Numbered from the stretch's first letter, positions 1-44,107 are shown. The stretch: DNA of 64,000 nt from Ostreococcus lucimarinus (GCA_000092065.1 CP000584.1); one strand, 5' to 3'. A program made the numbers and translations. Notes: generated from the letters alone by a model not told the origin.

Positions 1-1
1 C

Positions 2-16937: not shown

Positions 16938-17744
16938 TCAGCGCGCGGCGACCTCGAGGAAACCGTCGAGCGCGCGAAAGATGACGTCGGTGGCGACGAT
17001 GAGCTCGCGGCGACACGCCTCGCTGGCGCGCAACTCGGAGTCGGGATCGCAGAGCTCGGCGACGAGCGTCTCGTCGGCTTCTAGAAATTCGAGGGCGTAT
17101 GATTTCCCCGAACGCGAGTCGCGCTCGAGCTTGACGCGATATTCGCGCAGGGCGATGATGTAATCGCGCTGTTTTAACCCCTCGATCGCGAACGCGCGCT
17201 CGAGGATGTCTCGAATGCGCGCTCGCGCCTCGGCTTCGTCGACGTCGCCCGCCGCGCACCGTCGCCCGGCGTCCAGCGTCTCGTCCAGGACTCTCGTCTC
17301 CAGCGGCATCGCGCGCATTTTATACTGCGTCGTGAATATTTTTGCCAACTCCAGCAGCGTCGTCAGCTCGTCCTCGGGCGCGCGTCTCGCGTACGCCGCG
17401 TACACGGCGTCGAAGGCGTCCTCGCAGAAAGCCGCCGTCAACCGCTCGCTCGCGCAGAACGCGTCCACGAACGTCGCCGCGTCGCGCTCGCTCAGCGTGA
17501 ACGCGTGATTCACGAGCGCGATGAACGACGCGTCGATCGGCAGCGCGTCGAGCGTCGCGCCGCGACGGGCGTCGTCGTGGTCGTCCCCGGAGGCGGCGCG
17601 CAGCGGCGGCGACGACGTCCGAAAGCGACGCCGCGCGCGCGTTTCGCGCGACGCCGGCGCGACGCGCGCGCGCGACGGCGCGCGACGCGACGACGTCGAC
17701 GGCTCGCCCGCGGCGCGCGCGCTCGAGCGCGCGAGCGACGACAT
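16938..17744 (-). CDS. Hypothetical all-alpha protein with an Arg-rich presequence (possibly mitochondrial); function unknown
   Basis: Non-repetitive ORF (…YIIALREYRVKLERDSRSGKSYALEFLEADETL…). ATG is the reverse complement of 17742-17744, divergent from the next gene. Confidence 0.45.
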   Translation of the reverse strand: MSSLARSSARAAGEPSTSSRRAPSRARVAPASRETRARRRFRTSSPPLRAASGDDHDDARRGATLDALPIDASFIALVNHAFTLSERDAATFVDAFCASERLTAAFCEDAFDAVYAAYARRAPEDELTTLLELAKIFTTQYKMRAMPLETRVLDETLDAGRRCAAGDVDEAEARARIRDILERAFAIEGLKQRDYIIALREYRVKLERDSRSGKSYALEFLEADETLVAELCDPDSELRASEACRRELIVATDVIFRALDGFLEVAAR

Positions 17745-17810
17745 CGCGCGCGACGCGGCGGGCAGTGGCGACCGCGACGCCACATCGAGGCGGTGCGCCG
17801 CGCGCGCGCG

Positions 17811-18836
17811 ATGCGACGCGCGATGCGACTCGCGCTGGCGTGGTGCGCGATGACGCTCGGCGCGTCGGCGCTCGCGCGCGGCGCCAGGATCGGGCCCGAA
17901 CGCGCGGCGCGCGGCGGCGATCGCGGAGAAGAAGGCGGAGGCGAACGCCCATCGACGCGCGTCGACGGCGCGGACGCGCGCGCGCCGCGCGATCGCGCGA
18001 TCGAGTTCGATCGCATCGAACGCGTGTCTTGGCGCCCGCACGCGGAGGTGTATCGAGGATTCTTGACGCGCGAGGAATGCGACCACTTGAAGGCGCTCGC
18101 GACGCCGAGCCTCGGTCGCTCGACCGTGGTGGACGCGAGCAACGGCGGGAGCGTGCCGAGCGATATACGCACGTCGAGCGGGATGTTCCTGCTCAGGGGG
18201 GAAGACGACGTCGTCGCGTCGATCGAGAGGCGCATCGCGTCGTGGACGCACGTGCCGGAGTCGCACGGGGAAGGTTTCCAGGTGCTGCGGTACGAATTCG
18301 GTCAAGAGTATCGGCCGCACTTTGATTATTTTCAAGACGAATTCAATCAGAAGCGCGAAAAGGGCGGGCAGCGCGTGGCGACGGTGCTGATGTATCTCAC
18401 CGACGTCGAAGAGGGGGGAGAGACGATATTTCCGGACGCCGAGGCGGGCGCGAACCCGGGCGGCGGCGACGACGCGTCTTCGTGCGCGGCGGGGAAGTTG
18501 GCGGTGAAACCGCGCAAAGGTGACGCGTTATTCTTCAGAAGTCTGCATCACAACGGGACGTCGGATGCCATGAGCTCACACGCGGGGTGTCCGGTGGTAA
18601 AGGGGGTCAAGTTTAGCGCCACGAAATGGATGCACGTCGCTCCGATTGAAGACTCGGCGACCGCCTCGGTGCGATTTGAGCCCGGCGTTTGTAAAGACGT
18701 CAACGCGGCGTGCGAGGGCTGGGCGTCGTCGGGTGAGTGCACGAAAAATCCATCGTTCATGGTTGGGCGAGGTCGTGCGAACGGCAACTGCATGCGCTCG
18801 TGCGGCGCCTGCCCGCCCGGCACTCGCGACGAGTAG
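17811..18836 (+). CDS. P4H: Prolyl 4-hydroxylase alpha-like 2OG-Fe(II) oxygenase with a signal peptide and a C-terminal ShK toxin-like domain
   Basis: RPHFDYF, VATVLMYLTDVEEGGETIFP and H…KW catalytic motifs. 6-Cys ShKT module CKDVNAACEGWASSGECTKNPSFMVGRGRANGNCMRSCGAC. Confidence 0.8.
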   Translation: MRRAMRLALAWCAMTLGASALARGARIGPERAARGGDRGEEGGGERPSTRVDGADARAPRDRAIEFDRIERVSWRPHAEVYRGFLTREECDHLKALATPSLGRSTVVDASNGGSVPSDIRTSSGMFLLRGEDDVVASIERRIASWTHVPESHGEGFQVLRYEFGQEYRPHFDYFQDEFNQKREKGGQRVATVLMYLTDVEEGGETIFPDAEAGANPGGGDDASSCAAGKLAVKPRKGDALFFRSLHHNGTSDAMSSHAGCPVVKGVKFSATKWMHVAPIEDSATASVRFEPGVCKDVNAACEGWASSGECTKNPSFMVGRGRANGNCMRSCGACPPGTRDE

Positions 18837-18908
18837 AATAGAAGACGCGTAGTCGATTGATTCGCTAGCACTAGATTCGCGTGTGATTAAAACGCATCGT
18901 AGGAAATA

Positions 18909-19559
18909 CTATGTCCTATTTTGGCGCTGCCCAGTGACTTCCGCGGGCAAAGGTCTATTGAAGCCGCCGACGCGATTCATGTATTGCCTGGCTTGCCGCT
19001 TCGTCTTCTTTTGCACCGCCGACGCGTTGGCGAACTCATCCTCCACGTGCTTGCCTTGCGTCGTGCCGAATCCTCCGAATCCCATCATGCGCATCATCGC
19101 GGACTCATCGTCTTCGTCCTCACCCGCCGGCGGCGGCGGCGGCGGCGGCACGTCGACCGCTTTCCCGCCGCCCGCCGCGGGCGGCGGCGGCGGCACGTCT
19201 CTCCGTCGCTTACGGTCGTCGCGCGCCGGCGATCGCGATCGCGACCGCGACCTCGACCTCGACCGCGAATCACGTCGTCGCTTCCTTCGATCGTCATCGC
19301 GCGAATCCTCGCGCGCGCCGCGTCCGCGACCGTACCCCCCGTACCGCCGCGGCGGCGACCTCGACCTCGACCTCGACCTCGACCTCGACCTCGACCTCGA
19401 CCTCGACCTCGCTCGCCGCGCGCCGTACCCTCCGTACCGCCGTCCCGGCGACCTCGACCTTGACCTCGCCCGCGCGCCCCCCCTCCATCGCCCGTCGCGT
19501 CCATCGTCGCGTCCGTACCCTCGCCCGTCTCGTCCGTCGTCTCGTCCGAACCGCCCCAT
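18909..19559 (-). CDS. SNRNP27: U4/U6.U5 tri-snRNP 27 kDa protein (SNRNP27): N-terminal RS domain and conserved C-terminal domain
   Basis: The C-terminus MMRMMGFGGFGTTQGKHV…KKTKRQARQYMNRVGGFNRPL matches the SNRNP27 (DUF1777) signature. The RS repeats are encoded by the (GACCTC)n microsatellite. Confidence 0.8.
   Translation of the reverse strand: MGRFGRDDGRDGRGYGRDDGRDGRWRGGARARSRSRSPGRRYGGYGARRARSRSRSRSRSRSRSRSRSPPRRYGGYGRGRGAREDSRDDDRRKRRRDSRSRSRSRSRSRSPARDDRKRRRDVPPPPPAAGGGKAVDVPPPPPPPAGEDEDDESAMMRMMGFGGFGTTQGKHVEDEFANASAVQKKTKRQARQYMNRVGGFNRPLPAEVTGQRQNRT
19357..19410. repeat. (GACCTC)9 coding microsatellite, encodes (RS)n on the minus strand
   Basis: Perfect hexamer repeats inside the SNRNP27 RS domain. 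A shorter copy lies at 19243-19262. Confidence 0.9.
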
Positions 19560-19819
19560 CGTCTACGCGTCCCGCGTCCCCGCCCCCTTATCCAGCACCG
19601 CGCGCAGTTTCGCCTCCTCCGCGCGCGCGCTCTCGAAGTGCGTCACCCACGACCTCGGACACGCCCGCTCGTACGCCTCGCGCGCGCGTCGACACGTCGC
19701 CGTCGCCGTCGCCGTCGCCGCCGAATCCGAATCCGAATCCGTCGTCGCCGCGGCGTCCGCGCACCGGTGATACGCGTCGCGCGCGTCGCGGCACGCGACC
19801 CGCGCCGCGCGTATGGATC

Positions 19820-19821
<2 letters not shown>

Positions 19822-19857
<36 letters not shown>
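19822..19857. repeat. (GTC)12 trinucleotide microsatellite, intergenic
   Basis: Perfect repeat located between the SNRNP27 start and the AP2 gene. Confidence 0.9.
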
Positions 19858-19859
<2 letters not shown>

Positions 19860-19958
19860 GCGCCGCGCCGCGCCGTCGTCTGTCGAATCGTCGAAAATCG
19901 CGTCGAATCGCGTCGACGCGCGCGTCGACGCCCGACTGTTTGCGCATACGGCGAGGAT

Positions 19959-20081
19959 CGAGAGGGACACATTCCCGAGTCGCCATCGGTCGATGGCGCC
20001 GAGAGGGACACATTCGTGAGTCGCCATCGGTCGATGGCGCCGAGAGGGACGCATTCCCGAGTCGCCATCGGTCGATCGGTC
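19959..20081. promoter_or_regulatory. Three tandem copies of a 41-bp unit (CGAGAGGGACACATTCCCGAGTCGCCATCGGTCGATGGCGC), each with an 8-9 bp-stem palindrome GCGCCATCG-GT-CGATGGCGC; candidate cis-regulatory module about 250-370 bp upstream of the AP2/ERF ATG
   Basis: Copies at 19959-19999, 20000-20040 and 20041 to about 20081. Copy 2 differs at 3 nt and copy 3 degenerates into GTCGATCGG repeats. Confidence 0.5.
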
Positions 20082-20332
20082 GATCGGCGTCCCAGATTCT
20101 CGGGACGCTTTTTCGTCGGCACGTTTCGCTCCGACGCCGCGCGTCGACGGCGCGACTCCGCCGCGTGCGCGAGCGACGCGGCGCGACGCGACGCGAGCGC
20201 ATCGGGACGACCGCGAGGGACGACCGCGCGGCGCGCGCGACGCTCTCGGACGCGACGGCGAGCGCGCGCGCGTCGACGCGAACGCGCGAAAAAGCGCAAA
20301 AGTCCGAAGCGATAGGCGACGCGACGCGCGCG

Positions 20333-20422
20333 ATGGCGACGCATCACGGCGCGCACTCGCGGAAATCGACGCCGGATCCCGACGAGGACGACGCGCTGGA
20401 CGATGATCTCGATGATCTCGAG
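20333..20422 (+). CDS. AP2/ERF transcription factor, exon 1 ([30 protein letters not shown]); donor GTGCGAGCG at 20423
   Basis: ATG at 20333, phase-0 donor. The intron has ACTGAC at 20648-20653 and acceptor CGCAG at 20671-20675. Alternative model: an uninterrupted ORF from ATG 20403. Confidence 0.5.
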
Positions 20423-20675
20423 GTGCGAGCGCGAACGCGGGAGAGACGAGGACGAGAGGGAGGAGACGGGGGGGAATTGTGGGAACGCGGGACGACGCGG
20501 GACGACGCGCGGGACGAGGACGCGAGGCGAACGAGACGCGAGCGAACGGCAGAGGACGACGAGGCGAGGACGCGCGATCGGGACGGTAGTGATCGCGAGG
20601 TCGAGCGCGCGAGAGAGAGAGAGGGCGTCGAACGCGGGCGTGGAGGTGACTGACGAGGCGCGACGACGCACGCAG

Positions 20676-21857
20676 GGCGGCAAGGGCGACAAGCAGTCGA
20701 AAAAGGCGACGACGTCGCAGTATCGCGGGGTGAGACAGCGCCCGTGGGGGAGCTGGGCGGCGGAGATACGCGATCCAAATCGAGGCGCGAGATTGTGGCT
20801 CGGCACGTTCGATACCGCCGAAGAGGCGGCGAGAGCGTACGACGCGGCGGCGAGACACATTCGCGGGCCAAACGCGAAGACGAATTTTCAGCTCGCGCCG
20901 GGGGAGGAACCGCCGCCGTTCGTTTTGCCCGAGCCCCCGTCGGGGGGGCGCGGTGGTGGCGGTGGCGGTGGTGGACGCGGCCGGGGCGGACACGACGCGG
21001 GTTTGCCGTCAATCGGAGGTTTCGGCGCCGGAGCGTCGCGCCAGCCCAACGCGCTCAAGAAGCAAAAACCCGTGGGGAAGGACGCGAAGGGGGGTCCGAG
21101 CACTATTTACGGCTTCGGTCCGAGTTCGAGCGACAAGAACTCCACTCCTAAGCGTGGTTCGATAGGTTTCGGCAGTGGCACCGACTTATCCGCCCTCGTC
21201 AACGCCAATCTCGCCTTGGCCAACCAAAACCTCGCCTCGGCCGGGTCGGCGAGAAAGGATCACGAAAACAGTTTCATGAAACTCTTCGCCAACGGTAGCG
21301 TGGGTGGGACGCCGTCGAGCACGGGTGGATCGCCGCTCATTATGCCCGAGTCAGTGGAACTGCGCGACGGCATGAGCGGCATGAGCGGTGAGATTCCGGT
21401 GATTCACGGCAAACGCGACCGCGGTCCGAGCAGCGCGTTTTTTGGCACGTCGTTCGGCGTCGCGGGTTCGTTCGGTTCGATGTTTCCCCCGGACATGGGG
21501 CTGTCCTCAACCCCGGACGGTGTCGACAATTTCTACGGCGAGTTCTCCATGTCCCCCAACGATCGGTCGGCGCACGGTGCAGATCATTTCCCCGTCGGAA
21601 GCTTGGGGACGATGGTCGACTTGAACGACGCGCTGCCGGCGGTGGGATCGCTCGATCTCGGAAGTCCGGTAGACTTAGACTCGATGATGAATTCGTTGCC
21701 GAGAAATAGTGGCGGGAAGGTTCAAACCGTCGCATCTATTCTCGGCAAACCCAAGAAAAAAGAGCACGATTCACCGCTTGGAAGAGCGTCGACGCGCAAC
21801 ACGCGCGAATCCTCGCGCTCGAAGAGCGCGTTGGACGCCATGTCAGCGCTCAAATGA
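20676..21857 (+). CDS. AP2/ERF transcription factor, exon 2 with the AP2 domain ([49 protein letters not shown])
   Basis: Canonical single AP2/ERF DNA-binding domain. Gly- and Ser-rich tail. Confidence 0.8.
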
Positions 21858-22145
21858 AGTTTTCTTCTTGTATACGGTAGAACAGTAGAAGAAAGAGCGC
21901 AAGCTCACTCGCGAAGCATTTCCGCACATTTACCCTCTTTCATCTGTAATTTTCAAGTCAATTTTGTTCCCTCGGGCTTGCCGCGCGTCGAGTCGAAATC
22001 GCGCGCGTCGCGCGTCGCGCGTCGTATACTTTGTTCGTTCGTGTTCGCATTGACAACAAAATTGATAATAGAGTCCCGGGGTCCCCCGGTGTCATCGCCA
22101 CATCGTGCACACGCGTTCAAAGGCTAAGGCAAAGCTGGCGCGCGT

Positions 22146-22301
22146 TTAAATCTTAAACGAGCCGCCCTCCGAGATGTTCAAGCCGCCCTTCGGCTTGTAC
22201 TGCCCGCTCTTCAGGTCGTCTTCGTACCCGGCGCCGATGACGCCGGAATCGCGCACGGACTTTTCGAGCAACCAATCGAAGAATCCCTTCTTTTGGCCCG
22301 G
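22146..22301 (-). CDS. Small orphan protein, exon 2 of 2 (PGQKKGFFDWLLEKSVRDSGVIGAGYEDDLKSGQYKPKGGLNISEGGSFKI*)
   Basis: Non-GC-biased coding segment ending at a TAA (reverse complement of 22146-22148). Preceded by acceptor ACACAG and branch ACTGAC (reverse complement of 22335-22340). Confidence 0.4.
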   Translation of the reverse strand, partial: PGQKKGFFDWLLEKSVRDSGVIGAGYEDDLKSGQYKPKGGLNISEGGSFKI

Positions 22302-22655
22302 CTGTGTCGCGTGCGTCGCGCGGTCGCGTCATCCGTCAGTCGCGCGTTCGCGTTCGCCTTCGTCTCCCCCTCGGTCTCTTCCCTCGCCCCAATCTCGCGA
22401 TCGACCGTTCGCGACCCAGCATCGACCCCCCCCCGAGGTCGCGCGATCGATCGATCGCCGCGTCGCCGTCCTTTCACCGATCGCCGCGTCGCGCGCGCGT
22501 CCTCGCGGCCGATCGATCGCGCGCGCGCGCCGATCGCGCGCGTCGCGCGCGCGCGTCGATCGCGCGTCGCGCGCGCCGCCCCGCGCCCCTCGCGGCCTCG
22601 ATCGCGGTCGCGGTCGCGACGGCTTCAGGATAAAACCAAGCGGCGCCCTGCGCAC

Positions 22656-22748
22656 CTTGCCCGCGGCGGCCTTCTTCCCCGCGACGCGCTTCGTCCCGGA
22701 CGTGTTCGCGGCGTTCACGACGACGCGCGTGGAGCTAACGGCAAACAT
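22656..22748 (-). CDS. Small orphan protein, exon 1 (MFAVSSTRVVVNAANTSGTKRVAGKKAAAGK); donor GTGCGC; 354-bp in-frame intron containing a TGA
   Basis: ATG is the reverse complement of 22746-22748. The intron is GC/GATC-rich low complexity and is interrupted by an in-frame stop at 22329-22331. Confidence 0.35.
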
Positions 22749-22821
22749 GTGTCTCGGTGGCGGCGGCGCGCGTGTCTGACGCCGCGCGGCGCGCGCGCGA
22801 TCGCGGCGCGCGCGGTCGGTC

Positions 22822-22858
22822 GTAAAGGTCCGTAAAGGTCGTAAAGGTCGTAAAGGTC
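22822..22858. promoter_or_regulatory. (GTAAAGGTC)4 tandem nonamer, about 95-130 bp upstream of the eS17 ATG; candidate promoter element
   Basis: CGTAAAGGTCCGTAAAGGTCGTAAAGGTCGTAAAGGTCCG in the 200-bp divergent spacer between the orphan gene and eS17. Confidence 0.45.
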
Positions 22859-22950
22859 CGTGTGTGTACGATCGACGGACGCGAGACCGAGCCCCCGCGC
22901 GCGACGCGCGGCGCGATCCGTCTCTGCACGACGCGCGCGAACACGCCGAC

Positions 22951-22983
22951 ATGGGTCGCGTTCGCACGAAGACGGTGAAAAAG
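22951..22983 (+). CDS. RPS17: 40S ribosomal protein eS17 (RPS17), exon 1 (MGRVRTKTVKK); donor GTGCGCG
   Basis: Identical to the universal eS17 N-terminus. Confidence 0.85.
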
Positions 22984-23237
22984 GTGCGCGTCGAATCGAA
23001 CGCGTCGCGAGCGGCACCGGCGACGGCGCGCGCGGCGACGGCGACGGCGCGAACGCGCGACGCGATGGACGGGGCGACGATGGAAACCCTAAGGACGATC
23101 GCAGAGAGAACGAACGCGCGCGGGAGGGCGGCGTCGAGCGCGCGATCGGACGCGCGAACGGACGGGGAGGCGCGGGTGATTTTGAACGCGCGCGATGACT
23201 GACGACGACGACGATGCGGTGTTCGCGCGTGCGGTAG

Positions 23238-23369
23238 GCGTCTCGCCAAATCATCGAAAAGTATTACTCGAGGCTCACGCTCGACTTTGCGACGAACAAG
23301 CGCATCGCGGATGATATCGCGATCATTCCGTCCAAGCGTTTGCGTAACAAGATTGCGGGTTTCACGACG
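23238..23369 (+). CDS. RPS17: eS17 exon 2 ([44 protein letters not shown])
   Basis: Acceptor GGTAG at 23233-23237 with ACTGAC at 23197-23202. Donor GTACGT at 23370. Confidence 0.8.
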
Positions 23370-23508
23370 GTACGTTTTAAGGCGAGCGAAGCGCGGGAAC
23401 GCGGTCGGTGCGCGAGAGGGCGCGACGGTGCGACCGAGGCTCGATCGGTGGGGTTTGAGACGCGCGAACGCGCGACTGACGTCGGGTTGATGAATCGTTC
23501 GGAAACAG

Positions 23509-23748
23509 CACTTGATGAAGCGTATCCAACGCGGACCGGTGCGCGGTATCTCGCTCAAGCTTCAAGAGGAGGAGCGTGAGCGCCGCATGGATTTCGTGCC
23601 GGAGAAGTCCGCGCTCGAGACGGACTCCATCGAAGTCGACCGGGACACGATGGATATGTTGAAGTCGATGAACATGGGTAACTTGCAAGGCGTTTCTGTG
23701 TCTAGCCGTGCGCACTACAACAAGGGTCCGCGACGTGATCGCGCGTAA
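23509..23748 (+). CDS. RPS17: eS17 exon 3 ([32 protein letters not shown]…)
   Basis: Acceptor AAACAG at 23503-23508 with ACTGAC at 23475-23480. Collinear with human eS17 and gives a 133-aa total. Confidence 0.85.
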
Positions 23749-23837
23749 TTTCGCACACGTATGCCCGCGAGAACATTAGGTCATCGCGAGTAGAAATGTG
23801 AGACTAATAGACTTGGTTTAAATTGTCGCGCGTCGCC

Positions 23838-30123: not shown

Positions 30124-30217
30124 CGCGCGTCCCGTCGCGCGCGCGAATGATGGCTGCGAATGCGCGCATCGACGGGACGCGAACGCGCGCGGCACGTCGC
30201 GACGCGGCGCGGCGCGC

Positions 30218-31511: not shown

Positions 31512-31706
31512 CCCGTGGAGTCCGTTCCACCGTTCGCCATCATCGTCGGCGCCATCACCGCCATGGGCGGGCTGCAGTACCTCACCCACGGCGCGGCGTA
31601 CGGGAAGCCGCGCGCGATCGGGCAGGACGCGTTCGATCGTCTCGTCGCGGCGCGAGACGAGCGCGTCAAGACGGCCGCCGCGAGCGGACGCGGGGCGCAA
31701 AAGTAG
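31512..31706 (+). CDS. NDUFA1: NADH:ubiquinone oxidoreductase (complex I) subunit NDUFA1/MWFE, exon 2 (PVESVPPFAIIVGAITAMGGLQYLTHGAAYGKPRAIGQDAFDRLVAARDERV…)
   Basis: Collinear with plant MWFE (…MGNSQYYIHKAYHGRPKHIGHDEWDVAMERRDKKV…). Confidence 0.7.
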   Translation, partial: PVESVPPFAIIVGAITAMGGLQYLTHGAAYGKPRAIGQDAFDRLVAARDERVKTAAASGRGAQK

Positions 31707-31812
31707 CGCGTTTGAACCGCGACCGGGCGCTCGAGCGCCGTTGTAATTGATCCCTAGAGTAGCGCGGACGCGGCGAATCGAGACGCGACCCGGCGCCGGG
31801 CGAAGCGACACA

Positions 31813-32187: not shown

Positions 32188-32239
32188 CGAAGACCGCTAG
32201 TAGTGCTAGTATTAGTATTGCATGTCGCGATATATCGCG

Positions 32240-34307: not shown

Positions 34308-34344
<37 letters not shown>

Positions 34345-34495
34345 GTCGCACGTTGAGCCCGACGAGGACGTTCATCGGCATCGCGCGCGCTTTGCGCGAG
34401 CATACGGCCTCGATCGCCGCCGCGGTGACGTCCACGGACGCGCGCGAGTGTCCATCGACGCACAGCGCGCTCGCGATGTCGCGCGCGCGCGTCAT
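32240..34495 (-). CDS. SBP2: SECIS-binding protein 2 (SBP2)-like selenocysteine-insertion factor with an L7Ae RNA-binding domain and two C2H2/U1-type zinc fingers
   Basis: The C-terminal domain RRRLLFGLREVAKSV…KVVVIAPNIEKIESEGGLDDRVRQIIADAREKDVPVIFALTKRRIGKALG…SIVSVLDYNGADEEF is collinear with the SBP2 L7Ae module. Zinc fingers are CQVCGRAFKAYDALEQHIGASH and CDVCDVKCFGEQAWNAHVGGKLH. ATG is the reverse complement of 34493-34495 (alternatives at 34381/34375). The (GTC)n repeat at 34319-34350 encodes poly-Asp. Confidence 0.7.
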
Positions 34496-34543
34496 CGCGC
34501 GCGCGCGTCGACGTGTGCCGTCACTCGTCGTCGCGTCATCGCG

Positions 34544-35485: not shown

Positions 35486-35557
35486 AGTCCGCGACGCGGT
35501 GCGTTCGCTCGTTTTACCCGCTAAAATCAATATTCTCAACTCCTACCGCCATGTTTC

Positions 35558-36019
35558 CTAGTGCGTTTCCGCGAGCTCTTCCTCCCGCTGTCTCGACAGG
35601 TGCAACAGCGCGTCCACCCTTCGCTCGCGCGCCGCGCGCCTCGCGTCCACCTCCGCGCTCACCTCCTCGTACCGCATCCCTCGCCCCGGCTCCCCTCCCT
35701 CTTCGATGACATCGTATTGATCGTAATTCGCGTACCCTCTCGCGATCGCCTCCCCTCGCGCGTCTCCCTCGCCCCGCGTTCGCGCCTTCGCGACGTCCTC
35801 CGTCTCCCCCATCACCGCCCGTCGCTTCGCCTCGCGCAACCGTCGCCGCCCCGGATCGTTCCCACGCCTCCCGCGCACCACGCGCGCCATCTGTCGCCCG
35901 AGCGCGCACGCGACGCCCACCCCCAGCGCGAGATACGTCAGCGCGAACATCGCCCGCATCAAATTCGCGTCCCGTTCGACGCGCATCGCCGGCGGCGGCG
36001 GCGGCGGCATCGACGCCAT
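35558..36019 (-). CDS. Small single-TM protein (153 aa), function unknown
   Basis: MASMPPPPPPAMR…MFALTYLALGVGVACALG TM helix. Acidic YANYDQYDVIEEGGE C-terminal half. ATG is the reverse complement of 36017-36019. Confidence 0.4.
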   Translation of the reverse strand: MASMPPPPPPAMRVERDANLMRAMFALTYLALGVGVACALGRQMARVVRGRRGNDPGRRRLREAKRRAVMGETEDVAKARTRGEGDARGEAIARGYANYDQYDVIEEGGEPGRGMRYEEVSAEVDARRAARERRVDALLHLSRQREEELAETH

Positions 36020-36377
36020 GTCGGCGTCGAGGACCGGCGCGACGACGTCGAGGATCGTCGCGCGGCGCGCCTCGGTCGCCGCGCGTCGACGAGTCGCGAC
36101 CGTCGGCGCGCGCCGTCGACGCGTTCGGCCGCGGCGTTGGTCCGTGTTAAAGTGTCCCCGTCGTGAGACTATGGTCCGTGTTAAAGTGTCCCCGTCGTGA
36201 GACGACCTCGCGACGGTCGCGGTCGCGGACGCGATTCGTCGTCGCCGCGACGCGACGCGCGCCGACGCGACGCCGCGCGACGCGAGCGACGCGCGCGATC
36301 GCGCGGTCGACGCGTCGGACGCGGACGCGCGAACGACGCGCGACGCGGAAGCGGGACGAACGACGGCGGAGGATTCG

Positions 36378-38183: not shown

Positions 38184-38256
38184 GCCCGAGTCGAGCGAAC
38201 TTTTTACTGTGTCATCATTATTGCATATTGTTATCATTACACGTAGCGCATCTTCA

Positions 38257-39264
38257 CTATATTGTCGTATCTTCACTTTTGCGTCGCTGGCCAGTGAGCA
38301 TCGCACGCGCGCGCCGACCAAGCTCAACCAAGCTCAATCTGCGACTGACGGCGCCGGTGCCGCGAGCCGGCGAGCCGGCGAGAACCCATGGGTGTCTCGA
38401 CACCTCGCGTAACGTGATTCGCTTCTTCGGGTCGGGGTGTAGCATACGAAGAATCAGATCTTTGACCTCGTTCGATATCGATCGAGACATCGGCGCGATG
38501 TTTCCCTTCACGATGTTTTCGAGCGTCAACTTCACGGAGTTTGGGCGGTCTGGATTTTGAAATGGATATGTGCCAGTCAACATGATGTAACAAAAGACCC
38601 CGCACGACCAAACATCGCAAGCCTTCGCGTCGTACTTTGTTCGTCTCACGTTCCCGTCGCCGTCGTGCTTGTCCAGCATCTCGGGCGCCATGTAATCCGG
38701 CGTGCCGACCGCGCGCGTCGCGACGCTATCCAGGCCCTTGGCCAATCCGAAATCGATGAGTTTCAAATCTCCGTGCGGCTCGCACACGATCGCGTTCTCG
38801 GGTTTGACGTCTCGATGACACAATCCGTGATCGTGTATCATCCGGATCGCCTCCACGAGCTGCGAGAACAACCGTCTCGCCGTGACTTCGTCCAATCGTC
38901 CGCCCCGCGCGTTTATGAAATCCAAAACGTCGACCCCCCGCGCGAGTTCAAACACCAACACCAACAAATCTTCCCCATCGTTCACAACATTCATCAATCG
39001 CACGACTCGACTCGTCGACGCCATCAATTTCGTCGCGTACTTGATCTCCCTCTTCACCGCCGCCAGCGGCACCTTCACCCTCGCCCCGTCGCCGACGTCC
39101 AAGCACTTCAGCGCGACTTTTTCCCCCGTCTCCCGATCCACGCCCTCGTACACCAACGCCGTGCCACCGCGATTGATCAGCTTCGTCACCTCGTACCGCG
39201 CGTTTTTCCCCACCGTCGTCCCGCGCGCGAGTTCGTTCGCCGCCGCGCGCGTCGACCGCATCAT
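38257..39264 (-). CDS. Ser/Thr protein kinase (CAMK/AMPK-like), 335 aa
   Basis: Complete kinase subdomains (ALKCL…HRDVKPEN…DFGLA…GTPDYMAPE…DVWSCGV). Confidence 0.85.
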   Translation of the reverse strand: MMRSTRAAANELARGTTVGKNARYEVTKLINRGGTALVYEGVDRETGEKVALKCLDVGDGARVKVPLAAVKREIKYATKLMASTSRVVRLMNVVNDGEDLLVLVFELARGVDVLDFINARGGRLDEVTARRLFSQLVEAIRMIHDHGLCHRDVKPENAIVCEPHGDLKLIDFGLAKGLDSVATRAVGTPDYMAPEMLDKHDGDGNVRRTKYDAKACDVWSCGVFCYIMLTGTYPFQNPDRPNSVKLTLENIVKGNIAPMSRSISNEVKDLILRMLHPDPKKRITLREVSRHPWVLAGSPARGTGAVSRRLSLVELGRRARAMLTGQRRKSEDTTI

Positions 39265-39290
39265 CGCGACGTCGATTGGTCTTCTCGGCG

Positions 39291-40391
39291 ATGGCGCCGG
39301 GTCGCGATCCGCGTTCGTTCGACGACGGCGCGTTCGCGACGACGCGATGCGGTTCGCGACGGACGACGACGCGACGCTCGTTTCGGACGCGCGTCGCGAC
39401 GAAGGCGCTCGATCGACGCGTCGACGAAAGCGACGCGTCGACGAATCGAATCGTTCGCTCGAACGCGTCGACGTGTGGCGATCGAACCGACGCGCGTCGA
39501 CCGGCGATCGCGACGCGCGGCGACGCGATGCGGGACGCGGTGTACTACCCGGACGACGACGACGACGCGCGCGAGGACGCGCGCGAGGACGGCGCGACGA
39601 CGACGACGCGCGCGGGCGCGACGACGACGACGACGACGACGACGATCGCGACGGGCGATGCGAGCGAAGGCGATGGGAAAGCGCGCGCGACGATCGCGAC
39701 GGGCGCGCGCGAGGGAGGGGGGAGTTACACCACGCCGGGAGTGGTTCCGCCGGTGATGCCGACGCGGTTGGTGAGCGCGAGGACGTACGAGAGCGAACCG
39801 GCGAGAGGGACGCCGGTGAGCGCGATTGAGACGCGACCGCGACCGCAGACGATCGCGCGCGCGCAGGGCGGCGTGTTCGCGTTCGTGTCGCCGATGTTCG
39901 CGGACATGGATGATCCTCAAGTGCGCGCGGTGATGGAACGGGAGTTCGCGCGCGAGTTGGGGTTGCCCGAGGGCGAACTGCCGGTGGATTTGGAGCACTT
40001 CATGCTGGCGCGACAGTTGAGTCGCGTGGTGCGTTTGTTCGCGTTGATCGATATGGTGTTGTGCGTGTTGTACGCGCTGAGCGGGGTGAGCGTGATCGCG
40101 GTGTTACTCATAGGCCCGCTCGCTGGGTTCGTGGGGGCGCGCATGTACAGTCCAGGGCTCACCGCTTGTTACGTGGCGTTTTGCGTGGCGTCCATCGTTT
40201 GGCGAATTTTGAATTTCGTCTTTATGAAAAATGTCACCGCGCGCGTGCTGTCGGTGATCACCATCATCTTAGCGACGTACATCACGCGATTGGTGATTCG
40301 GTTTTATCACGTCGTGCGCGTGATACCGCTCGAGGGACAAATTTTGCTTCGGCAACTCGACTTCGCGAACTCGGCGGCGCCCGTGGTCTAA
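39291..40391 (+). CDS. Polytopic membrane protein with a poly-Thr/Asp N-terminus, function unknown
   Basis: C-terminal 150 aa is strongly hydrophobic (3-4 helices). ATG at 39291 lies only 26 bp from the kinase ATG at 39264. The track start is a TTG. Confidence 0.45.
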   Translation: MAPGRDPRSFDDGAFATTRCGSRRTTTRRSFRTRVATKALDRRVDESDASTNRIVRSNASTCGDRTDARRPAIATRGDAMRDAVYYPDDDDDAREDAREDGATTTTRAGATTTTTTTTIATGDASEGDGKARATIATGAREGGGSYTTPGVVPPVMPTRLVSARTYESEPARGTPVSAIETRPRPQTIARAQGGVFAFVSPMFADMDDPQVRAVMEREFARELGLPEGELPVDLEHFMLARQLSRVVRLFALIDMVLCVLYALSGVSVIAVLLIGPLAGFVGARMYSPGLTACYVAFCVASIVWRILNFVFMKNVTARVLSVITIILATYITRLVIRFYHVVRVIPLEGQILLRQLDFANSAAPVV

Positions 40392-40453
40392 ATGTAATTT
40401 TCAACGTACAATAGTCGATAGTTACAGCTGCTGCTACCTAAACGCCGACCGAC

Positions 40454-41446
40454 CTAACCGCGCGGTTTTTGGTGTCGTCGCCGTCCGAGCGATTTCCAGA
40501 ACGCCTTGACCTCTTTCCGCGCGTTCGGACGTCCTCGGCCTCCGCAAAACGACTCGGCGTCTTTGCCTGGCGGAACAAAGCACGCGCACGAGCCGTGTTT
40601 TTTCACCTTCTTCACGCGCTTCAACACGAACCAGCGACGGACGCGTCGTTTCGACGACGAGCCTTCGCTCGTTATGAGCTTTCGATATCCCTCTCTGTCC
40701 TCGACCCAACCGTGCGCGCAAAACGTATCCATCCACCACCGCCTCGTTTGATACGTTTCGTCTTCGTCTCCCACCGGGCTCCCACCGTCGAGCGTCTTCG
40801 CCAGCGCGAACACCATCATCGCCCCTTTCTTCGCCACGCGCGTGGCTTCGTTTATCACCGGATCGACGTTTTCTTTCGTCGCCTTCATCTCCATCTTCCC
40901 GAACGTCTCGAACGCGACGACGTAATCGAAAAACGCTCGTCGATACGGCAAGCGCCGCAACGACGCCGCCGTCGCCACGCCTTTCGCCGCCAAATCTCCC
41001 CCCCGATCGCGCGTGCGCGCGATTCTCGGATCGACGCCCACTATCTTAAACCCTCGTTCTCGCATCTCTCGCAAAAACGTGCCCGTGCCGCACGCCAGCT
41101 CCAATCCGCGCGCGTCTCGCCGCCGTCCCGCCGCCGCGCGCACGAACGCCCCCATCCCTTCGCACGCCCCGCACGTCGCCCGCATCTCCGCCTCGCCGAT
41201 CGTCACCGCGCGCGTCTCGTCATCATCATCCTCCGCTCGCCCTCGCGCGAACCACGACGCGAGCGCGGACGGCGGCGCCGGCGGCGCGCGCACGCGCGCG
41301 CCGTCCGGTCGAACGAACGTCGTCGCGTTCGCATCTTTCGACGCCGCGCGGTGCGCCCACGTCAGCGTCGCGCACGCGACGGCGACGAGGACGAAGAGCG
41401 TCGGTCGGCATCGCCTCGGGCGCGCGACGACGCGCGAGAGCGCCAT
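40454..41446 (-). CDS. Signal-anchored (type II) SAM-dependent methyltransferase
   Basis: N-terminal TM helix TLFVLVAVACATLTW. Motif-I LELACGTGTFL. ATG is the reverse complement of 41444-41446; the ORF part further upstream is Arg-rich artefact. Confidence 0.6.
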   Translation of the reverse strand: MALSRVVARPRRCRPTLFVLVAVACATLTWAHRAASKDANATTFVRPDGARVRAPPAPPSALASWFARGRAEDDDDETRAVTIGEAEMRATCGACEGMGAFVRAAAGRRRDARGLELACGTGTFLREMRERGFKIVGVDPRIARTRDRGGDLAAKGVATAASLRRLPYRRAFFDYVVAFETFGKMEMKATKENVDPVINEATRVAKKGAMMVFALAKTLDGGSPVGDEDETYQTRRWWMDTFCAHGWVEDREGYRKLITSEGSSSKRRVRRWFVLKRVKKVKKHGSCACFVPPGKDAESFCGGRGRPNARKEVKAFWKSLGRRRHQKPRG

Positions 41447-41521
41447 CGCGGCGCGGCGCGGCGCGGCGCGAAGTGCCGTTCGGGCGCGGCGCCATTCGTC
41501 CGCGCGCGACGACGCGCCGTC

Positions 41522-42304
41522 ATGGCGGTCGCGGCGCGACCGTCGCGATGGGACTTTCGCGCGCGAGTCTTCTTCGCGCTGTGCGCCGTGACGTGCGCGA
41601 GCGGGTGCGCGTGCGCGTGCGCGGCGCTCGCGCCGGGCGTCGTCAGACGACGCGCGGACGCGCTCTTCAGACTGTCGATTTACGCGTCGACGAGCGCGTT
41701 CGCGTACAGGATCGCGTACGGCGCGGCGACGAGCGTGAAGGCGAGAGATTTTAAGGCGCTCGGCGCGCATCTGTCGCGAAGCGCGCGCTCGAACGGGGGG
41801 CAATACATGATTTACGGGTCGATGGCGTTGGCGAGCGCGCGACGCGGCGGCGCCAACGCGCCGCAGTTGGCGCCTTTGATCGTGCTGAGCGCGTATCAGG
41901 TGCTGGCGATCGGGCATAAAGTGTGGGAGGACGCGGATAGTAAAACGATGTGGTGCAAGCTCGGGTTCGGACGCGTGTTCGACGCGGCGCAGCGAAATAT
42001 GGAGCTGGCGCTCGCGATTTGCGCGACGATGGAGGTGTCGCTGATGACGACGATTCTTCTGGATTTAGCGAGTCCTCAGCGACGTAGTTTTAGCCGAGTG
42101 ATCGCGTACGCGTTTTGGCTTCGATCGAGGTATCACTGTCACGATAACACGGTGTTTCGCATCAAGTTTACCGCGCACGATACGGCGCACTACCACAGAG
42201 AGGTTTGGAAAATGTTGGACGAGAAGGTGGCGTCCAAGGTGCCGGCGCTTCGAAAAGCCCTGTCGCCGTTCGCGACGTGGTTCGCCACGCCGTCGGCGTC
42301 GTAA
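41522..42304 (+). CDS. TMEM33/UPF0121-like ER membrane protein
   Basis: Three or four TM helices and a YAFWLRSRYH motif resembling the TMEM33 YYRFLTLRY signature. Low-identity call. Confidence 0.45.
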   Translation: MAVAARPSRWDFRARVFFALCAVTCASGCACACAALAPGVVRRRADALFRLSIYASTSAFAYRIAYGAATSVKARDFKALGAHLSRSARSNGGQYMIYGSMALASARRGGANAPQLAPLIVLSAYQVLAIGHKVWEDADSKTMWCKLGFGRVFDAAQRNMELALAICATMEVSLMTTILLDLASPQRRSFSRVIAYAFWLRSRYHCHDNTVFRIKFTAHDTAHYHREVWKMLDEKVASKVPALRKALSPFATWFATPSAS

Positions 42305-42358
42305 TGTTGTAACGAGCGTGTTGAATATTAATCATCATCTAAAAGTTCGTCCGATCTA

Positions 42359-43703
42359 TCAATATTTTGGTGGCACTTTGCACGCGTCGATTTCTCTCGC
42401 CGCGGCGTCAAAGCCCGGGAACATCATAAAGTTTGGCGAAATCCCTGTCTGATCGATGTCGACGAGACCTGGGGTGACGTACTTACCCACGGTGAGTACC
42501 ATCCCACTCAAATCACTGAGTTCGTACACGCTCTGAATCAAACCCTTGCCGTACGTCTTACTCCCGACCACAGTCGCTCGACAGTTGTCCTTCAAAGCGC
42601 CGGTTAAAATTTCGCTCGCAGAAGCGCTTCTGCCGTTGACAAGAACAACCAGCGGAACGTCAGCGGCGACGACAGGGTCATTTTTCGACGTCGTGATCGC
42701 CTTCAGCTTAGTCGGTAGTTGAGAATCAGATCCGTTTCTCGCGGTTTTTGTCGCCGAGACGTCGGTATCGCGTTTGACGCCTCCGGCGACGACTCGACCT
42801 TCGGTGTACGCGATGGTCGAATCCGCAGGTAAAAATAATCGAGCAATCTCCACACCAGCTTGCACTAATCCCCCAGGATTGTCGCGTAAGTCTAGAATAT
42901 ACGCGTCTGCTCCTTGCGTCCTTAAATCCGTGATCGCTCTCGCGATATCGCGCTCGGCGAGCGAGTTGAACTCGCGAAGCCGAATGTAACCGACGTGTCC
43001 GCCCTCCAGACGCATGCTCACTGGACTTTTCGGCGCTTCGAATTGACTGTCTCGCGTCAGAGAAACGACGCGCGGGACGTCTTCGCCTGTGCGCGAGATT
43101 GTTAGATCCACGCTCTTCCCGTCAGCCTCTTGAATGAGCGAAGACACCTGAAACGCGCTCAAGCCGCGCACGAGTTCGCCGTTGACGGCGACGATTTCAT
43201 CATCCTGCGCCACTCCAGCCTTCATCGCGCTCGAGTCGAGCACCATTCCCAGCACGCGCACGCGTTCAGGGTCGTCCGCATCTTCCGCGATGTTCAAACC
43301 GACGCCGGTGATGTCGTATTTCAACATCGAAGTGAACCGATCCGGCTCGATGAAGCGCGTAAACTTATCCCCGAGCGTCCCCAGCATCGACTTAATCATC
43401 TCGTACGCCTCCTCGCGACTTTGAGGCGGATTCGCCTCGTGTTCGGCCTTGATCGCCTCCCACGCCGCGCGATCGAATCCGTCCGACTCAGATTTTCTCG
43501 CCGGTAAAAAGTTGTCGAAAACCAACCCCCACGCTTCGTCCAAGATGGTCGCGTCCGTCGCGCCCTCCGATTCCGCCTCCGCCTCCGCCGCTTCGGCCGC
43601 GATCTCGCTCACCAGTTCCACCGCCGACGACACAGATTTCGTCCGCGCGTCCCCTCGACCGCGCGCGACGTCATCCGCGAACGCCGCGGGCGTCCCGAAC
43701 GTC

Positions 43704-43753
<50 letters not shown>

Positions 43754-44107
43754 GCGCGCGCGCGCCGTCGGCCCCATCACCGCTCGCGCGATCGCCTCCG
43801 CCCACGATGACGTCGTCGTCATCGACGCCGACGCGTCGCCGCGCGCGCGCGCGCCGTCGCCGCTCCTCGCGCGCGCGGCGCCGCTCGTTCGCCGTGACCC
43901 ATCGCCCGCGCGTCCCGACGACGACGTCGCGCACCGCGCGCGCGCGTGCGCACCGCGCGTCGTCGCGCGCGACGCGCCCGCGTTCGCGCCACCGCGCGGC
44001 CACGCCTCGGGGCGCGCGCTCGACGCGCGCGCGACGTGGAACCGCATCGCGCGCGTCGCGCGGTGACGCGATTTCGCGACGCGACGCCGCGCTCGTCGTC
44101 GCGCCAT
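42359..44107 (-). CDS. ctpA: C-terminal processing peptidase (S41, CtpA; photosystem II D1 carboxy-terminal protease)
   Basis: PDZ plus S41 catalytic region (…NPGGLVQAGVEIARLF…GRSASASEILTGALKDNCRATVVGSKTYGKG…). The track start at 44218 is a GTG; the first ATG is the reverse complement of 44105-44107. The (GCC)n repeat at 43704-43760 encodes poly-Ala. Confidence 0.8.

What the first reader, a model, noticed from the sequence alone, without database searches (positions are those of the whole stretch)
17744..44107. Pervasive head-to-head gene pairs with 0-100 bp between start codons, and 40-90 bp tail-to-tail spacers
Divergent ATG pairs by coordinate: 17744/17811 (66 bp), 30123/30218 (94 bp; an alternative in-frame ATG at 30219 would overlap 30218 in GCATGC), 34495/34544 (48 bp), 39264/39291 (26 bp), 41446/41522 (75 bp), 44107/44106 (overlapping in GCCATGC) and 10884-10887 (CATG, a candidate COX10 presequence start against the methyltransferase start). 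Convergent stop-to-stop gaps: 9563/9605, 12438/12480, 15395/15440, 32187/32240, 42304/42359 and 38183/38257. Strands alternate for most of the window. This level of compaction implies bidirectional promoters shorter than a nucleosome, and transcripts that overlap at both ends.
Basis: seen in the sequence. Interest (0 to 1): 0.55.

Follow-up and report, generated by a model that had tools for sequence, protein, structure and literature searches.

The report
Ordinary tight gene packing in Ostreococcus
The window is nuclear DNA of the tiny marine green alga Ostreococcus lucimarinus, and the very short gaps between neighbouring genes on opposite strands are real but are the well-documented compaction of this genome, not a new feature.

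Summary
The window is Ostreococcus lucimarinus CCE9901 nuclear DNA: at least eleven ORFs match its GenBank proteins exactly. I count about 43 genes in 61 kb.

All six tail-to-tail gaps (41-73 bp) are confirmed.

Of the seven head-to-head pairs, four stand, at 66, 94, 48 and 75 bp. Three depend on non-conserved upstream ATGs:
- 39291 should be 39528, so the gap is 263 bp, not 26.
- 44107 should be 44047, so the gap is 58 bp and there is no overlap.
- 10885 should be 10936, giving a 49 bp gap.

One unlisted pair, 8665/8709, has a 43 bp gap. No coding sequences overlap. The smallest gap in either class is about 40 bp.

The two spacer classes differ completely in composition. Head-to-head spacers are CpG-rich (GC 0.65-0.85). 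Tail-to-tail spacers are AT-rich (GC 0.29-0.58) and carry the known UGUAA poly(A) signal 1-27 nt after stop codons. Both are shorter than same-strand spacers (median 215 bp), which suggests shared or interleaved control regions.

Gene order and orientation are conserved in O. tauri. The literature already reports intergenic regions under 200 bp, overlapping UTRs, and 1,482 close or overlapping opposite-strand pairs in this species. Already known; low interest.

The parts
8666..8708 (.). Head-to-head spacer, 43 bp, between TELO2-like (start 8665, minus) and RRM protein (start 8709, plus).
   Evidence: RRM 8709-9563 equals ABO95660.1. Eight conspecific contigs call TELO2 at 948 aa. Both ATGs are conserved in L020 with a diverged spacer.
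9564..9604 (.). Tail-to-tail spacer, 41 bp, GC 0.29, between RRM and COX10. TGTAA lies 15 nt after the COX10 stop.
10887..10935 (.). Head-to-head spacer, 49 bp, between COX10 (ATG 10886, minus) and Methyltransf_32 (conserved ATG 10936, plus).
   Evidence: Conspecific contigs show the same 49 bp gap. An 11-bp indel in L020 puts 10885 out of frame. tblastn places the L020 start at 10936.
12439..12479 (.). Tail-to-tail spacer, 41 bp, GC 0.32. TGTAA lies 1 nt and 13 nt after the methyltransferase stop.
   Evidence: ORF 12480-14138 equals ABO95913.1.
15396..15439 (.). Tail-to-tail spacer, 44 bp, GC 0.36, between TIPIN and Metallophos. TGTAA lies 1 nt after one stop and 7 nt after the other.
   Evidence: TIPIN equals ABO95662.1.
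17745..17810 (.). Head-to-head spacer, 66 bp, GC 0.85, between the 268-aa protein (16938-17744, minus) and prolyl 4-hydroxylase (17811-18836, plus).
   Evidence: Both ATGs are conserved in L020, and the spacer has indels. GenBank starts P4H at 17850.
30124..30217 (.). Head-to-head spacer, 94 bp, GC 0.79, between NF-YB-like (29629-30123, minus) and dual-specificity phosphatase (30218-31162, plus).
32188..32239 (.). Tail-to-tail spacer, 52 bp, between the conserved 124-aa protein and the L7Ae/zinc-finger protein.
34496..34543 (.). Head-to-head spacer, 48 bp, between the L7Ae/zf protein (32240-34495, minus) and DUF1295 (34544-35485, plus). The called spacers in three other Ostreococcus species are 58, 28 and 53 bp, and both ATGs are also conserved in a fourth relative (L017).
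   Evidence: DUF1295 equals ABO95671.1.
35486..35557 (.). Tail-to-tail spacer, 72 bp, between DUF1295 and the 153-aa gene.
38184..38256 (.). Tail-to-tail spacer, 73 bp, GC 0.41, between the RING protein and the kinase. TGTAA lies 15 nt after the kinase stop.
39265..39527 (.). Revised head-to-head spacer, 263 bp, between the kinase (38257-39264, minus) and the 287-aa protein (39528-40391, plus).
   Evidence: Frameshifting indels in conspecific contigs. The O. tauri model is 292 aa with a 227 bp spacer. 39291 is not conserved in L017 and 39528 is.
40392..40453 (.). Tail-to-tail spacer, 62 bp. TGTAA lies 1 nt and 27 nt after the two stops.
41447..41521 (.). Head-to-head spacer, 75 bp, GC 0.84, between Methyltransf_11 (40454-41446, minus) and TMEM33 (41522-42304, plus).
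   Evidence: Both equal GenBank models ABO95920.1 and ABO95674.1. The spacer is 65 bp in L007. N-termini align.
42305..42358 (.). Tail-to-tail spacer, 54 bp, GC 0.35. TGTAA lies 3 nt after the TMEM33 stop.
44048..44105 (.). Revised head-to-head spacer, 58 bp, between the S41 peptidase (42359-44047, minus) and the 183-aa membrane protein (44106-44657, plus).
   Evidence: The L017 start aligns with 44047, and the CATG at 44107 is out of frame there.
44106..44657 (+).
   Evidence: The O. tauri orthologue P0318 (190 aa, 43% identity, 'unnamed product') sits in the same syntenic position. The start and a signal-like N-terminus are conserved. GC3 is 0.88.
4886..4940 (.). Tail-to-tail spacer, 55 bp, between Rit1 and Rpb5.
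   Evidence: Rpb5 equals ABO95910.1.

Best explanation
This is the normal, already described architecture of the streamlined Ostreococcus lucimarinus nuclear genome. About 1.4 kb is used per gene and most genes have no introns.

Shown here:
- Divergent neighbours are separated by a short, very GC- and CpG-rich spacer. Seven pairs have 43-94 bp between conserved ATGs, usually with CGCG directly before the ATG.
- Convergent neighbours are separated by a short AT-rich spacer of 41-73 bp. It carries the species' UGUAA poly(A) signal within 1-27 nt of the stop codon.
- The spacer classes have distinct lengths and compositions.
- The gene arrangement is conserved in other Ostreococcus species.

Inferred:
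- The CpG-rich spacer, plus the first part of each coding region, acts as one shared promoter zone that is free of nucleosomes and of cytosine methylation. Transcription starts close to both ATGs.
- The two convergent 3' UTRs, each a few tens of nucleotides long, interleave inside the AT-rich spacer and so overlap by some tens of nucleotides.

The positions of transcript ends at these loci are inferred from sequence and from genome-wide literature, not measured.
For: Identity: exact protein matches to O. lucimarinus CCE9901 GenBank entries.

Density: 43 genes between 2651 and 63682.

Spacers by class:
- Head-to-head: n = 12, median 84.5 bp, GC 0.75.
- Tail-to-tail: n = 12, median 58.5 bp, GC 0.43.
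- Same-strand: n = 7, median 215 bp.
- GC of the two opposite-strand classes separates completely (U = 144, p = 1.8e-5).
- Tail-to-tail is shorter than same-strand (p = 0.0007), and head-to-head is shorter than same-strand (p = 0.034).

Poly(A) signal: TGTAA lies within 60 nt of the stop in 9 of 39 genes, against 2% expected by chance, at a median of 4 nt after the stop. UGUAA is the published O. lucimarinus poly(A) signal (PMC6413133).

Start context: CGCG-ATG, with CGCGCG enriched 4.3-fold in the 100 nt upstream of ATGs.

Conservation: gene order and orientation are the same in O. tauri chromosome 4 and in four other Ostreococcus lineages. Start codons are conserved while the spacers diverge by indels.

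Literature:
- A gene every 1.7 kb, intergenic regions under 200 bp, overlapping 3' ends in 8.9% of EST clusters (PMC2367439).
- Overlapping UTRs (PMC4378021).
- 1,482 cis-NAT pairs among 7,805 transcripts of this species (PMC3245084).
- 2,288 bidirectional pairs in O. tauri (PMC4035068).
- In O. tauri, the 5mCG minimum and the 6mA peak fall at the ATG, and 5mCG recovers over the first 200-300 bp of coding sequence (bioRxiv 10.64898/2026.07.10.737489).
Against: - No transcript ends were mapped for any gene in the window.
- Several starts rest on conservation and on gene calls made by prokaryote-style callers. Such callers probably avoid 5' overlaps (my recollection of how they work), which may bias them toward short, non-overlapping spacers.
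- GenBank models start later than I propose for P4H (17850) and Methyltransf_32 (11077). O. tauri's curated models give larger head-to-head spacers of 198-369 bp for two pairs, although conserved sequence extends upstream of those starts.
- Sample sizes per class are small (7-12). Some same-strand spacers could hide unannotated exons.
- Five of twelve head-to-head spacers are 146-358 bp, so 'pervasive' sub-100 bp spacing overstates the case.
Confidence: 0.85

Rival explanations
1. Annotation artefact. In 64% GC DNA, long open frames and upstream in-frame ATGs are common. Choosing the first ATG shrinks head-to-head gaps artificially, so the true starts lie further apart.
For:
- Antisense ORFs of 100-400 aa are everywhere in the window.
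- GenBank and O. tauri models choose later starts for some genes.
Against: - After correction, seven pairs still have 43-94 bp between ATGs. Those ATGs are conserved in relatives 57-87% identical at protein level, coding-level conservation starts right at them, and the spacers between them diverge by indels.
- For two pairs both partners equal GenBank models exactly.
- Stop codons are unambiguous, and the tail-to-tail gaps are just as short.
Confidence: 0.07
2. Compact but non-overlapping. Each gene has its own minimal promoter and very short UTRs that fit entirely inside the spacers, so there are no shared promoters and no overlapping transcripts at these loci.
For: - No spacer is shorter than about 40 bp in either class, as if a minimum private element were needed.
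- TGTAA sits 1-7 nt after many stops, so 3' UTRs of 20-30 nt would fit in 41-54 bp with little overlap.
- The methylation minimum at the ATG in O. tauri suggests very short 5' UTRs.
Against: - Head-to-head and tail-to-tail spacers sum to about half of what private modules of same-strand size predict.
- ESTs and RNA-seq in O. lucimarinus, O. tauri and Micromonas show overlapping 3' ends and UTRs genome-wide.
- Two core promoters plus two 5' UTRs within 43-49 bp is hard to accommodate.
Confidence: 0.25
3. True overlapping protein-coding genes. Start codons share nucleotides (GCCATGC at 44105-44107, CATG at 10884-10887), so the coding sequences overlap head to head.
For: - The palindromic CATG places an ATG on each strand at both sites, and in the window both are in frame with long ORFs.
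- PMC2367439 cites 'overlapping genes on opposite strands' in this genome.
Against: - In L017 the CATG lies 86 nt from the conserved S41 start, so it is out of frame, and no Met lies upstream of MRF.
- In L020 an 11-bp indel puts 10885 out of frame with 10936.
- Gene calls on all fourteen conspecific contigs give the shorter products.
Confidence: 0.03

Closest known systems
Genome compaction of Ostreococcus (O. tauri, Derelle 2006; O. lucimarinus, Palenik 2007), as summarised in PMC2367439, PMC4378021 and PMC6141220
   Same: It is the same organism and the same phenomenon: a gene every 1.4-1.7 kb, mean intergenic distance around 200 bp, about 80% coding, and overlapping UTRs.
   Different: Nothing essential differs. 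The window is somewhat richer than the genome average in opposite-strand neighbours within 100 bp: 17 of 31 measured spacers here, against 1,482 cis-NAT pairs among 7,805 transcripts genome-wide.
Bidirectional (head-to-head) gene pairs sharing a promoter, as catalogued in plants and O. tauri (PMC4035068)
   Same: Divergent neighbours lie far less than 1 kb apart. The arrangement is conserved among related species. The spacer is GC/CpG-rich, as in mammalian bidirectional promoters.
   Different: The spacers are 43-94 bp between ATGs, far shorter than typical plant or animal cases. Promoter sharing and co-expression were not tested here.
Convergent overlapping pairs in Micromonas (PMC4815162) and cis-natural antisense transcript pairs (PlantNATsDB, PMC3245084)
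   Same: Convergent genes with tiny or negative distance between their 3' ends. The AT-rich spacer carries the poly(A) signals of both genes.
   Different: In Micromonas the documented pairs cluster in the low-GC region and have long upstream spacers. Here they sit in ordinary high-GC chromosome sequence and alternate with tight head-to-head spacers. Actual overlap is not measured here.
Overlapping transcription in compacted eukaryotic genomes such as microsporidia and nucleomorphs (Williams et al. 2005, cited in PMC2367439)
   Same: Loss of intergenic DNA forces transcripts to run into their neighbours.
   Different: Ostreococcus is free-living. It keeps recognisable poly(A) signals right after stop codons and distinct promoter-like spacers. 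No multi-gene transcripts are indicated here.

Membership tests
Ostreococcus lucimarinus nuclear genome (compact Mamiellophyceae architecture) | Proteins identical to the O. lucimarinus CCE9901 annotation | tested here: met
   Exact matches to ABO95660.1, 95662.1, 95666.1, 95671.1, 95674.1, 95910.1, 95913.1, 95919.1 and 95920.1 on a 930,724-bp record.
Ostreococcus lucimarinus nuclear genome (compact Mamiellophyceae architecture) | About one gene per 1.3-1.7 kb and intergenic distances around 200 bp or less | tested here: met
   43 genes in 61 kb. Median spacers are 58.5, 84.5 and 215 bp by orientation class.
Ostreococcus lucimarinus nuclear genome (compact Mamiellophyceae architecture) | UGUAA poly(A) signal near 3' ends | tested here: met
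   9 of 39 genes have TGTAA within 60 nt after the stop, against 2% expected. The published usage is 30.4%.
Bidirectional promoter gene pair | Divergent genes with start sites less than 1 kb apart | tested here: met
   Twelve head-to-head spacers of 43-358 bp between start codons. Transcription start sites themselves were not mapped.
Bidirectional promoter gene pair | One shared regulatory region drives both genes (co-expression, shared nucleosome-free region) | not testable with these tools
   No expression or chromatin data can be queried. O. tauri methylation profiles centred on the ATG are only suggestive.
Bidirectional promoter gene pair | Arrangement conserved in related species | tested here: met
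   Same order and orientation in O. tauri (L016), L017, L007, L013, L019 and L020.
cis-natural antisense / convergent overlapping pair | Opposite-strand neighbours that overlap or lie within 100 nt (PlantNATsDB criterion) | tested here: met
   By coding-sequence ends, 10 of 12 tail-to-tail and 7 of 12 head-to-head spacers are 100 bp or less.
cis-natural antisense / convergent overlapping pair | Mature transcripts share complementary sequence | not testable with these tools
   Inferred only from TGTAA positions and from genome-wide EST and RNA-seq reports.
Overlapping protein-coding genes | Two coding sequences share nucleotides | tested here: not met
   The 44107 and 10885 starts are not conserved and are out of frame in relatives. 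The conserved starts leave gaps of 58 and 49 bp.

The most novel reading that the evidence does not exclude
The spacers may follow a strict minimal code that has not been stated explicitly. There would be a floor of about 40 bp for both classes. The promoter and 5'-UTR module would be a (CG)n tract ending in CGCG-ATG. The terminator module would be an AT-rich stretch with UGUAA directly after the stop. Because only opposite-strand neighbours can share such modules, selection for small genome size would have enriched and frozen alternating gene orientation. In the window 67% of adjacencies switch strand, and a run of 11 switches is conserved between O. lucimarinus and O. tauri.
Probability: 0.2. 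Interest if true: 0.4.

Novelty: already known. Interest (0 to 1): 0.15.

Why it matters
It matters little as a discovery, because extreme gene packing and overlapping UTRs in Ostreococcus have been textbook features since 2006-2007.

The practical value is for annotation:
- In this GC-rich genome the 'first ATG' rule produces false start-codon overlaps and false 26-bp promoters.
- Comparing sister lineages and population contigs resolves the starts.
- Spacer composition (CpG-rich versus AT-rich) gives a quick independent check of gene orientation.

The corrected numbers give a concrete size limit for anyone designing minimal promoters or terminators for Ostreococcus. Start codons lie 43-94 bp apart and stop codons 41-73 bp apart, with a floor near 40 bp.

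Tried and rejected
- Bacterial origin of the window was ruled out at once by eukaryotic Pfam content (Rpb5, ORC1, TIPIN, NF-YB, SNRNP27) and exact O. lucimarinus matches.
- Conspecific contigs (L001-L006, L021-L028; the first set measured at over 99% identity) were too similar to test most starts by substitution pattern. They helped only where indels occur, at 39265-39527 and 10849/10850.
- blastn at 1e-20 found nothing in the more distant Ostreococcus loci, so I used protein-level N-terminal alignments instead.
- The start context CGCG-ATG could not discriminate among the three candidate ATGs of P4H, because all three have it.
- I looked for remnants of the extra genes that sit inside head-to-head spacers in other species (FSH1 hydrolase in L007, FAA hydrolase in L019). 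None was found in the window.
- No Rfam family or tRNA explains the longer spacers.
- Derelle 2006, Palenik 2007 and Huff & Zilberman 2014 are not held in the library, so their content is cited only through papers that quote them.
- The MMETSP-derived 328-aa P4H ORF could mean a transcript start downstream of 17811. I could not resolve this without the transcript sequence.

Full report
WHAT THE WINDOW IS

The window is 64% GC and full of long ORFs on both strands. ORFs whose third codon position is the most GC-rich form a dense, non-overlapping series. Their products carry eukaryotic domains: Rpb5, ORC1/Cdc6, TIPIN/Swi3, NF-YB, SNRNP27, TELO2, ataxin-2, a DEAD helicase and COX10/UbiA.

Exact-sequence look-ups identify the source as Ostreococcus lucimarinus CCE9901. 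At least eleven ORFs are identical from first to last residue to its GenBank proteins, including ABO95660.1, 95662.1, 95666.1, 95671.1, 95674.1, 95910.1, 95913.1, 95919.1 and 95920.1, on a 930,724-bp record. I count 43 genes between 2651 and 63682, or about 1.4 kb per gene. There are no tRNAs and no Rfam families.

CHECK OF THE OBSERVATION

The six convergent gaps are correct: 41, 41, 44, 52, 54 and 73 bp. All twelve reading frames are backed by domains, by exact GenBank matches or by orthologues.

For the divergent pairs I tested each start three ways:
- against conspecific metagenome contigs over 99% identical (L001-L006, L021-L028);
- against syntenic loci of other Ostreococcus lineages at 57-87% protein identity (L007-L015, L017, L019, L020);
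- against the curated O. tauri chromosome 4 (L016).

Four pairs hold:
- 17744/17811: both ATGs are conserved in L020, and the later P4H ATGs at 17823 and 17850 are not.
- 30123/30218: the 30219 alternative is excluded by an in-frame stop in L013, and 30218 is the only ATG upstream of the conserved block.
- 34495/34544: the starts are equivalent in five species. Called spacers are 48 bp here and 58, 28 and 53 bp in three of the others.
- 41446/41522: both match the GenBank models, and the spacer is 65 bp in L007.

Three pairs do not hold as written:
- 39291. Between 39291 and 39528, four of six conspecific contigs (L001, L002, L004, L006) carry 1-bp indels that break or locally shift the frame and are called from the ATG equal to 39528, and a fifth (L005) also has a 1-bp deletion and is called at 346 aa. 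The ATG is absent in L017. O. tauri has a 292-aa protein 227 bp from the kinase. The real spacer is 263 bp.
- 44107. This ATG adds 20 residues that have no counterpart in L017. There the same CATG lies 86 nt from the conserved start, so it is out of frame. The conserved start is 44047, 'MRFHVARASS'. The spacer is 58 bp.
- 10884-10887. The minus-strand ATG (10886) is the COX10 start in all eight conspecific contigs, giving 464-466 aa. The window lacks a 113-119 bp segment at 10849/10850, which breaks the frame. The methyltransferase's conserved start is 10936, because an 11-bp indel in L020 puts 10885 out of frame. The spacer is 49 bp.

It has a syntenic O. tauri orthologue at 43% identity and a conserved start.

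In summary, nothing overlaps, and the smallest gap in either class is about 40 bp.

ANATOMY OF THE SPACERS

I used the best-supported coordinates for all measurements.

| Class | n | Range (bp) | Median (bp) | Mean GC |
|---|---|---|---|---|
| Head-to-head | 12 | 43-358 | 84.5 | 0.75 |
| Tail-to-tail | 12 | 41-170 | 58.5 | 0.43 |
| Same-strand | 7 | 130-398 | 215 | 0.67 |

- The GC contents of the two opposite-strand classes do not overlap at all (p = 1.8e-5).
- Tail-to-tail spacers are shorter than same-strand spacers (p = 0.0007). So are head-to-head spacers (p = 0.034).
- If each gene needed a private promoter and terminator of the size seen between same-strand genes, head-to-head plus tail-to-tail should equal twice the same-strand length. 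The observed ratio is 0.47, 95% CI 0.31-0.69.
- TGTAA occurs within 60 nt after the stop in 9 of 39 genes, against 2% expected by chance, at a median of 4 nt after the stop. UGUAA is the published poly(A) signal of this species, used at 30.4% of sites (PMC6413133).
- Upstream of start codons the consensus is CGCG-ATG. CGCGCG, GTCGCG and TCGCGA are enriched 4- to 5-fold over coding sequence, and CpG density is 0.27 per nucleotide.
- Across species, start codons and coding sequence are conserved right up to the ATG, while the spacers diverge by indels.

HOW IT MOST LIKELY WORKS

Shown: the two spacer classes, their lengths and compositions, the poly(A) signal next to the stops, and conservation of the arrangement.

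Inferred for the 5' side:
- The CpG-rich divergent spacer, with the first part of both coding regions, forms one shared hypomethylated, nucleosome-poor promoter zone.
- Transcription starts near both ATGs.
- This fits O. tauri long-read methylation data. There 5mCG is lowest and 6mA highest at the ATG, and 5mCG recovers over the first 200-300 bp of coding sequence with a roughly 180-bp periodicity.

Inferred for the 3' side:
- Cleavage 10-30 nt after a UGUAA that itself lies 1-27 nt after the stop gives 3' UTRs of a few tens of nucleotides.
- In a 41-54 bp spacer, two such UTRs from opposite strands must cross.

Genome-wide transcript data agree:
- Overlapping 3' ends in 8.9% of O. lucimarinus EST clusters.
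- RNA-seq assemblies concatenated 'due to overlapping UTRs' in O. tauri.
- EST-validated convergent overlapping pairs in Micromonas.

The main rival is that UTRs are so short that nothing overlaps. It is not excluded at the 5' side.

STRAND ALTERNATION

- 28 of 42 adjacencies switch strand, which is 0.67 (p = 0.022 against 0.5).
- The longest run of consecutive switches is 11, from the 124-aa gene at 31813 to the APE gene at 44828 (p = 0.008 against 0.5).
- Against a rough genome-wide switch rate of about 0.59, these become p = 0.20 and p = 0.041. I derived that rate from the 2,288 bidirectional pairs reported for O. tauri. It is a crude figure, because that paper counts transcripts rather than strict adjacencies.
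- The same order and orientation is present in O. tauri for the part of that run covered by the fetched locus, from DUF1295 to the TPR protein. The window therefore looks typical of the genome rather than special.

COMPARISON WITH WHAT IS KNOWN

- PMC2367439 calls O. lucimarinus 'the most compact eukaryotic genome', with a gene every 1.7 kb, intergenic regions under 200 bp and known overlapping genes on opposite strands.
- PMC6141220 lists a mean intergenic length of 256 bp in the column that appears to be O. tauri, and states 82% coding for O. tauri.
- PlantNATsDB lists 1,482 cis-antisense pairs (overlapping or within 100 nt) among 7,805 O. lucimarinus transcripts.

The finding is therefore a correct recognition of a documented property. 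I did not find the orientation-specific composition and length rules stated in the papers I could read. They follow naturally from known promoter hypomethylation and the UGUAA signal.

VERDICT

- Novelty: already known. Interest: 0.15.

Noticed in passing
window 10849/10850 (COX10 N-terminal region, minus strand): The window lacks a 113-119 bp GC-rich, repeat-like segment that all eight conspecific metagenome contigs have. Without it, the COX10 ATG (10886) is out of frame with the UbiA domain ORF (9605-10621, open to 11164). Conspecific contigs encode an intact 464-466 aa COX10. This is either an assembly collapse in the reference or a strain-specific deletion in an essential respiratory gene.
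   Followed up: partly
window 44106-44657 (+): A conserved 183-aa predicted membrane protein with a signal-like N-terminus (ARAFALxVLxGAPLF). It has a syntenic O. tauri orthologue ('unnamed product', 43% identity). No O. lucimarinus GenBank accession appeared among the cluster members listed, so it may be unannotated in the reference.
   Followed up: partly
window 35558-36019 (-) and spacer 36020-36377: The 153-aa gene corresponds only to the C-terminal 140 residues or so of a 704-930 aa protein present at this position in O. tauri, L007, L010 and L013 (42% identity, E = 1e-16). In O. lucimarinus and L017 the N-terminal ~570 residues are gone and only a 358-bp spacer remains. This looks like compaction by gene truncation.
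   Followed up: partly
upstream of most start codons, e.g. 17800-17810, 34496-34507, 44048-44060: There is a strong CGCG-ATG start context: -4 C in 24 of 37 genes, -3 G in 23, -2 C in 23, -1 G in 22. (CG)n tracts abut the ATG. CpG density is 0.27 per nucleotide in the 100 nt upstream, against 0.17 in coding sequence.
   Followed up: partly
window 39265-39527: This spacer is a hotspot of indel polymorphism within the species (1-bp, 3-bp and 18-bp indels in six contigs). It still contains a block, about 39460-39495, that is conserved in the relative L017. That block is a possible promoter or 5'-UTR element of the 287-aa gene.
   Followed up: no
L007:10038-10877 and L019:1595-2572: In other Ostreococcus lineages an extra gene sits inside what is a simple head-to-head spacer in the window: an FSH1-type hydrolase between the kinase and the 287-aa gene, and an FAA-hydrolase between P4H and the 268-aa gene. 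Each again lies 60-69 bp from its divergent neighbour. No remnant of either was detectable in the window.
   Followed up: partly
window 17811-17850 and 10936-11077; L016:7658 and L016:9631: Several database gene models appear N-terminally short compared with conserved sequence. O. lucimarinus P4H ABO95663.1 starts at 17850, which cuts into a signal-peptide-like MRRAMRLALAWCAMTLGASALA. Methyltransf_32 ABO95661.1 starts at 11077. The O. tauri TMEM33 and S41 models start downstream of conserved residues.
   Followed up: partly
window 49289-50974 (+): A 561-aa protein with a weak Phage_integrase (tyrosine recombinase) match (E = 6.6e-6, just under Pfam's cut-off). It is conserved and syntenic in O. 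tauri (572 aa) and L017 (571 aa). This could be a domesticated recombinase.
   Followed up: no
window ~18900-23800 and ~31200-31800: Small or intron-containing genes were missed by simple ORF listing and appear only in calls on related contigs. They are SNRNP27 (probably two exons), COX6B, a 201-aa ORF, ribosomal protein S17e (77-aa fragment) and NDUFA1/MWFE. Their spacers were left out of the statistics.
   Followed up: no
window 1-2650: The ORFs at the left end (378-1835, 1565-2424, all minus strand) were not resolved into a gene model.
   Followed up: no
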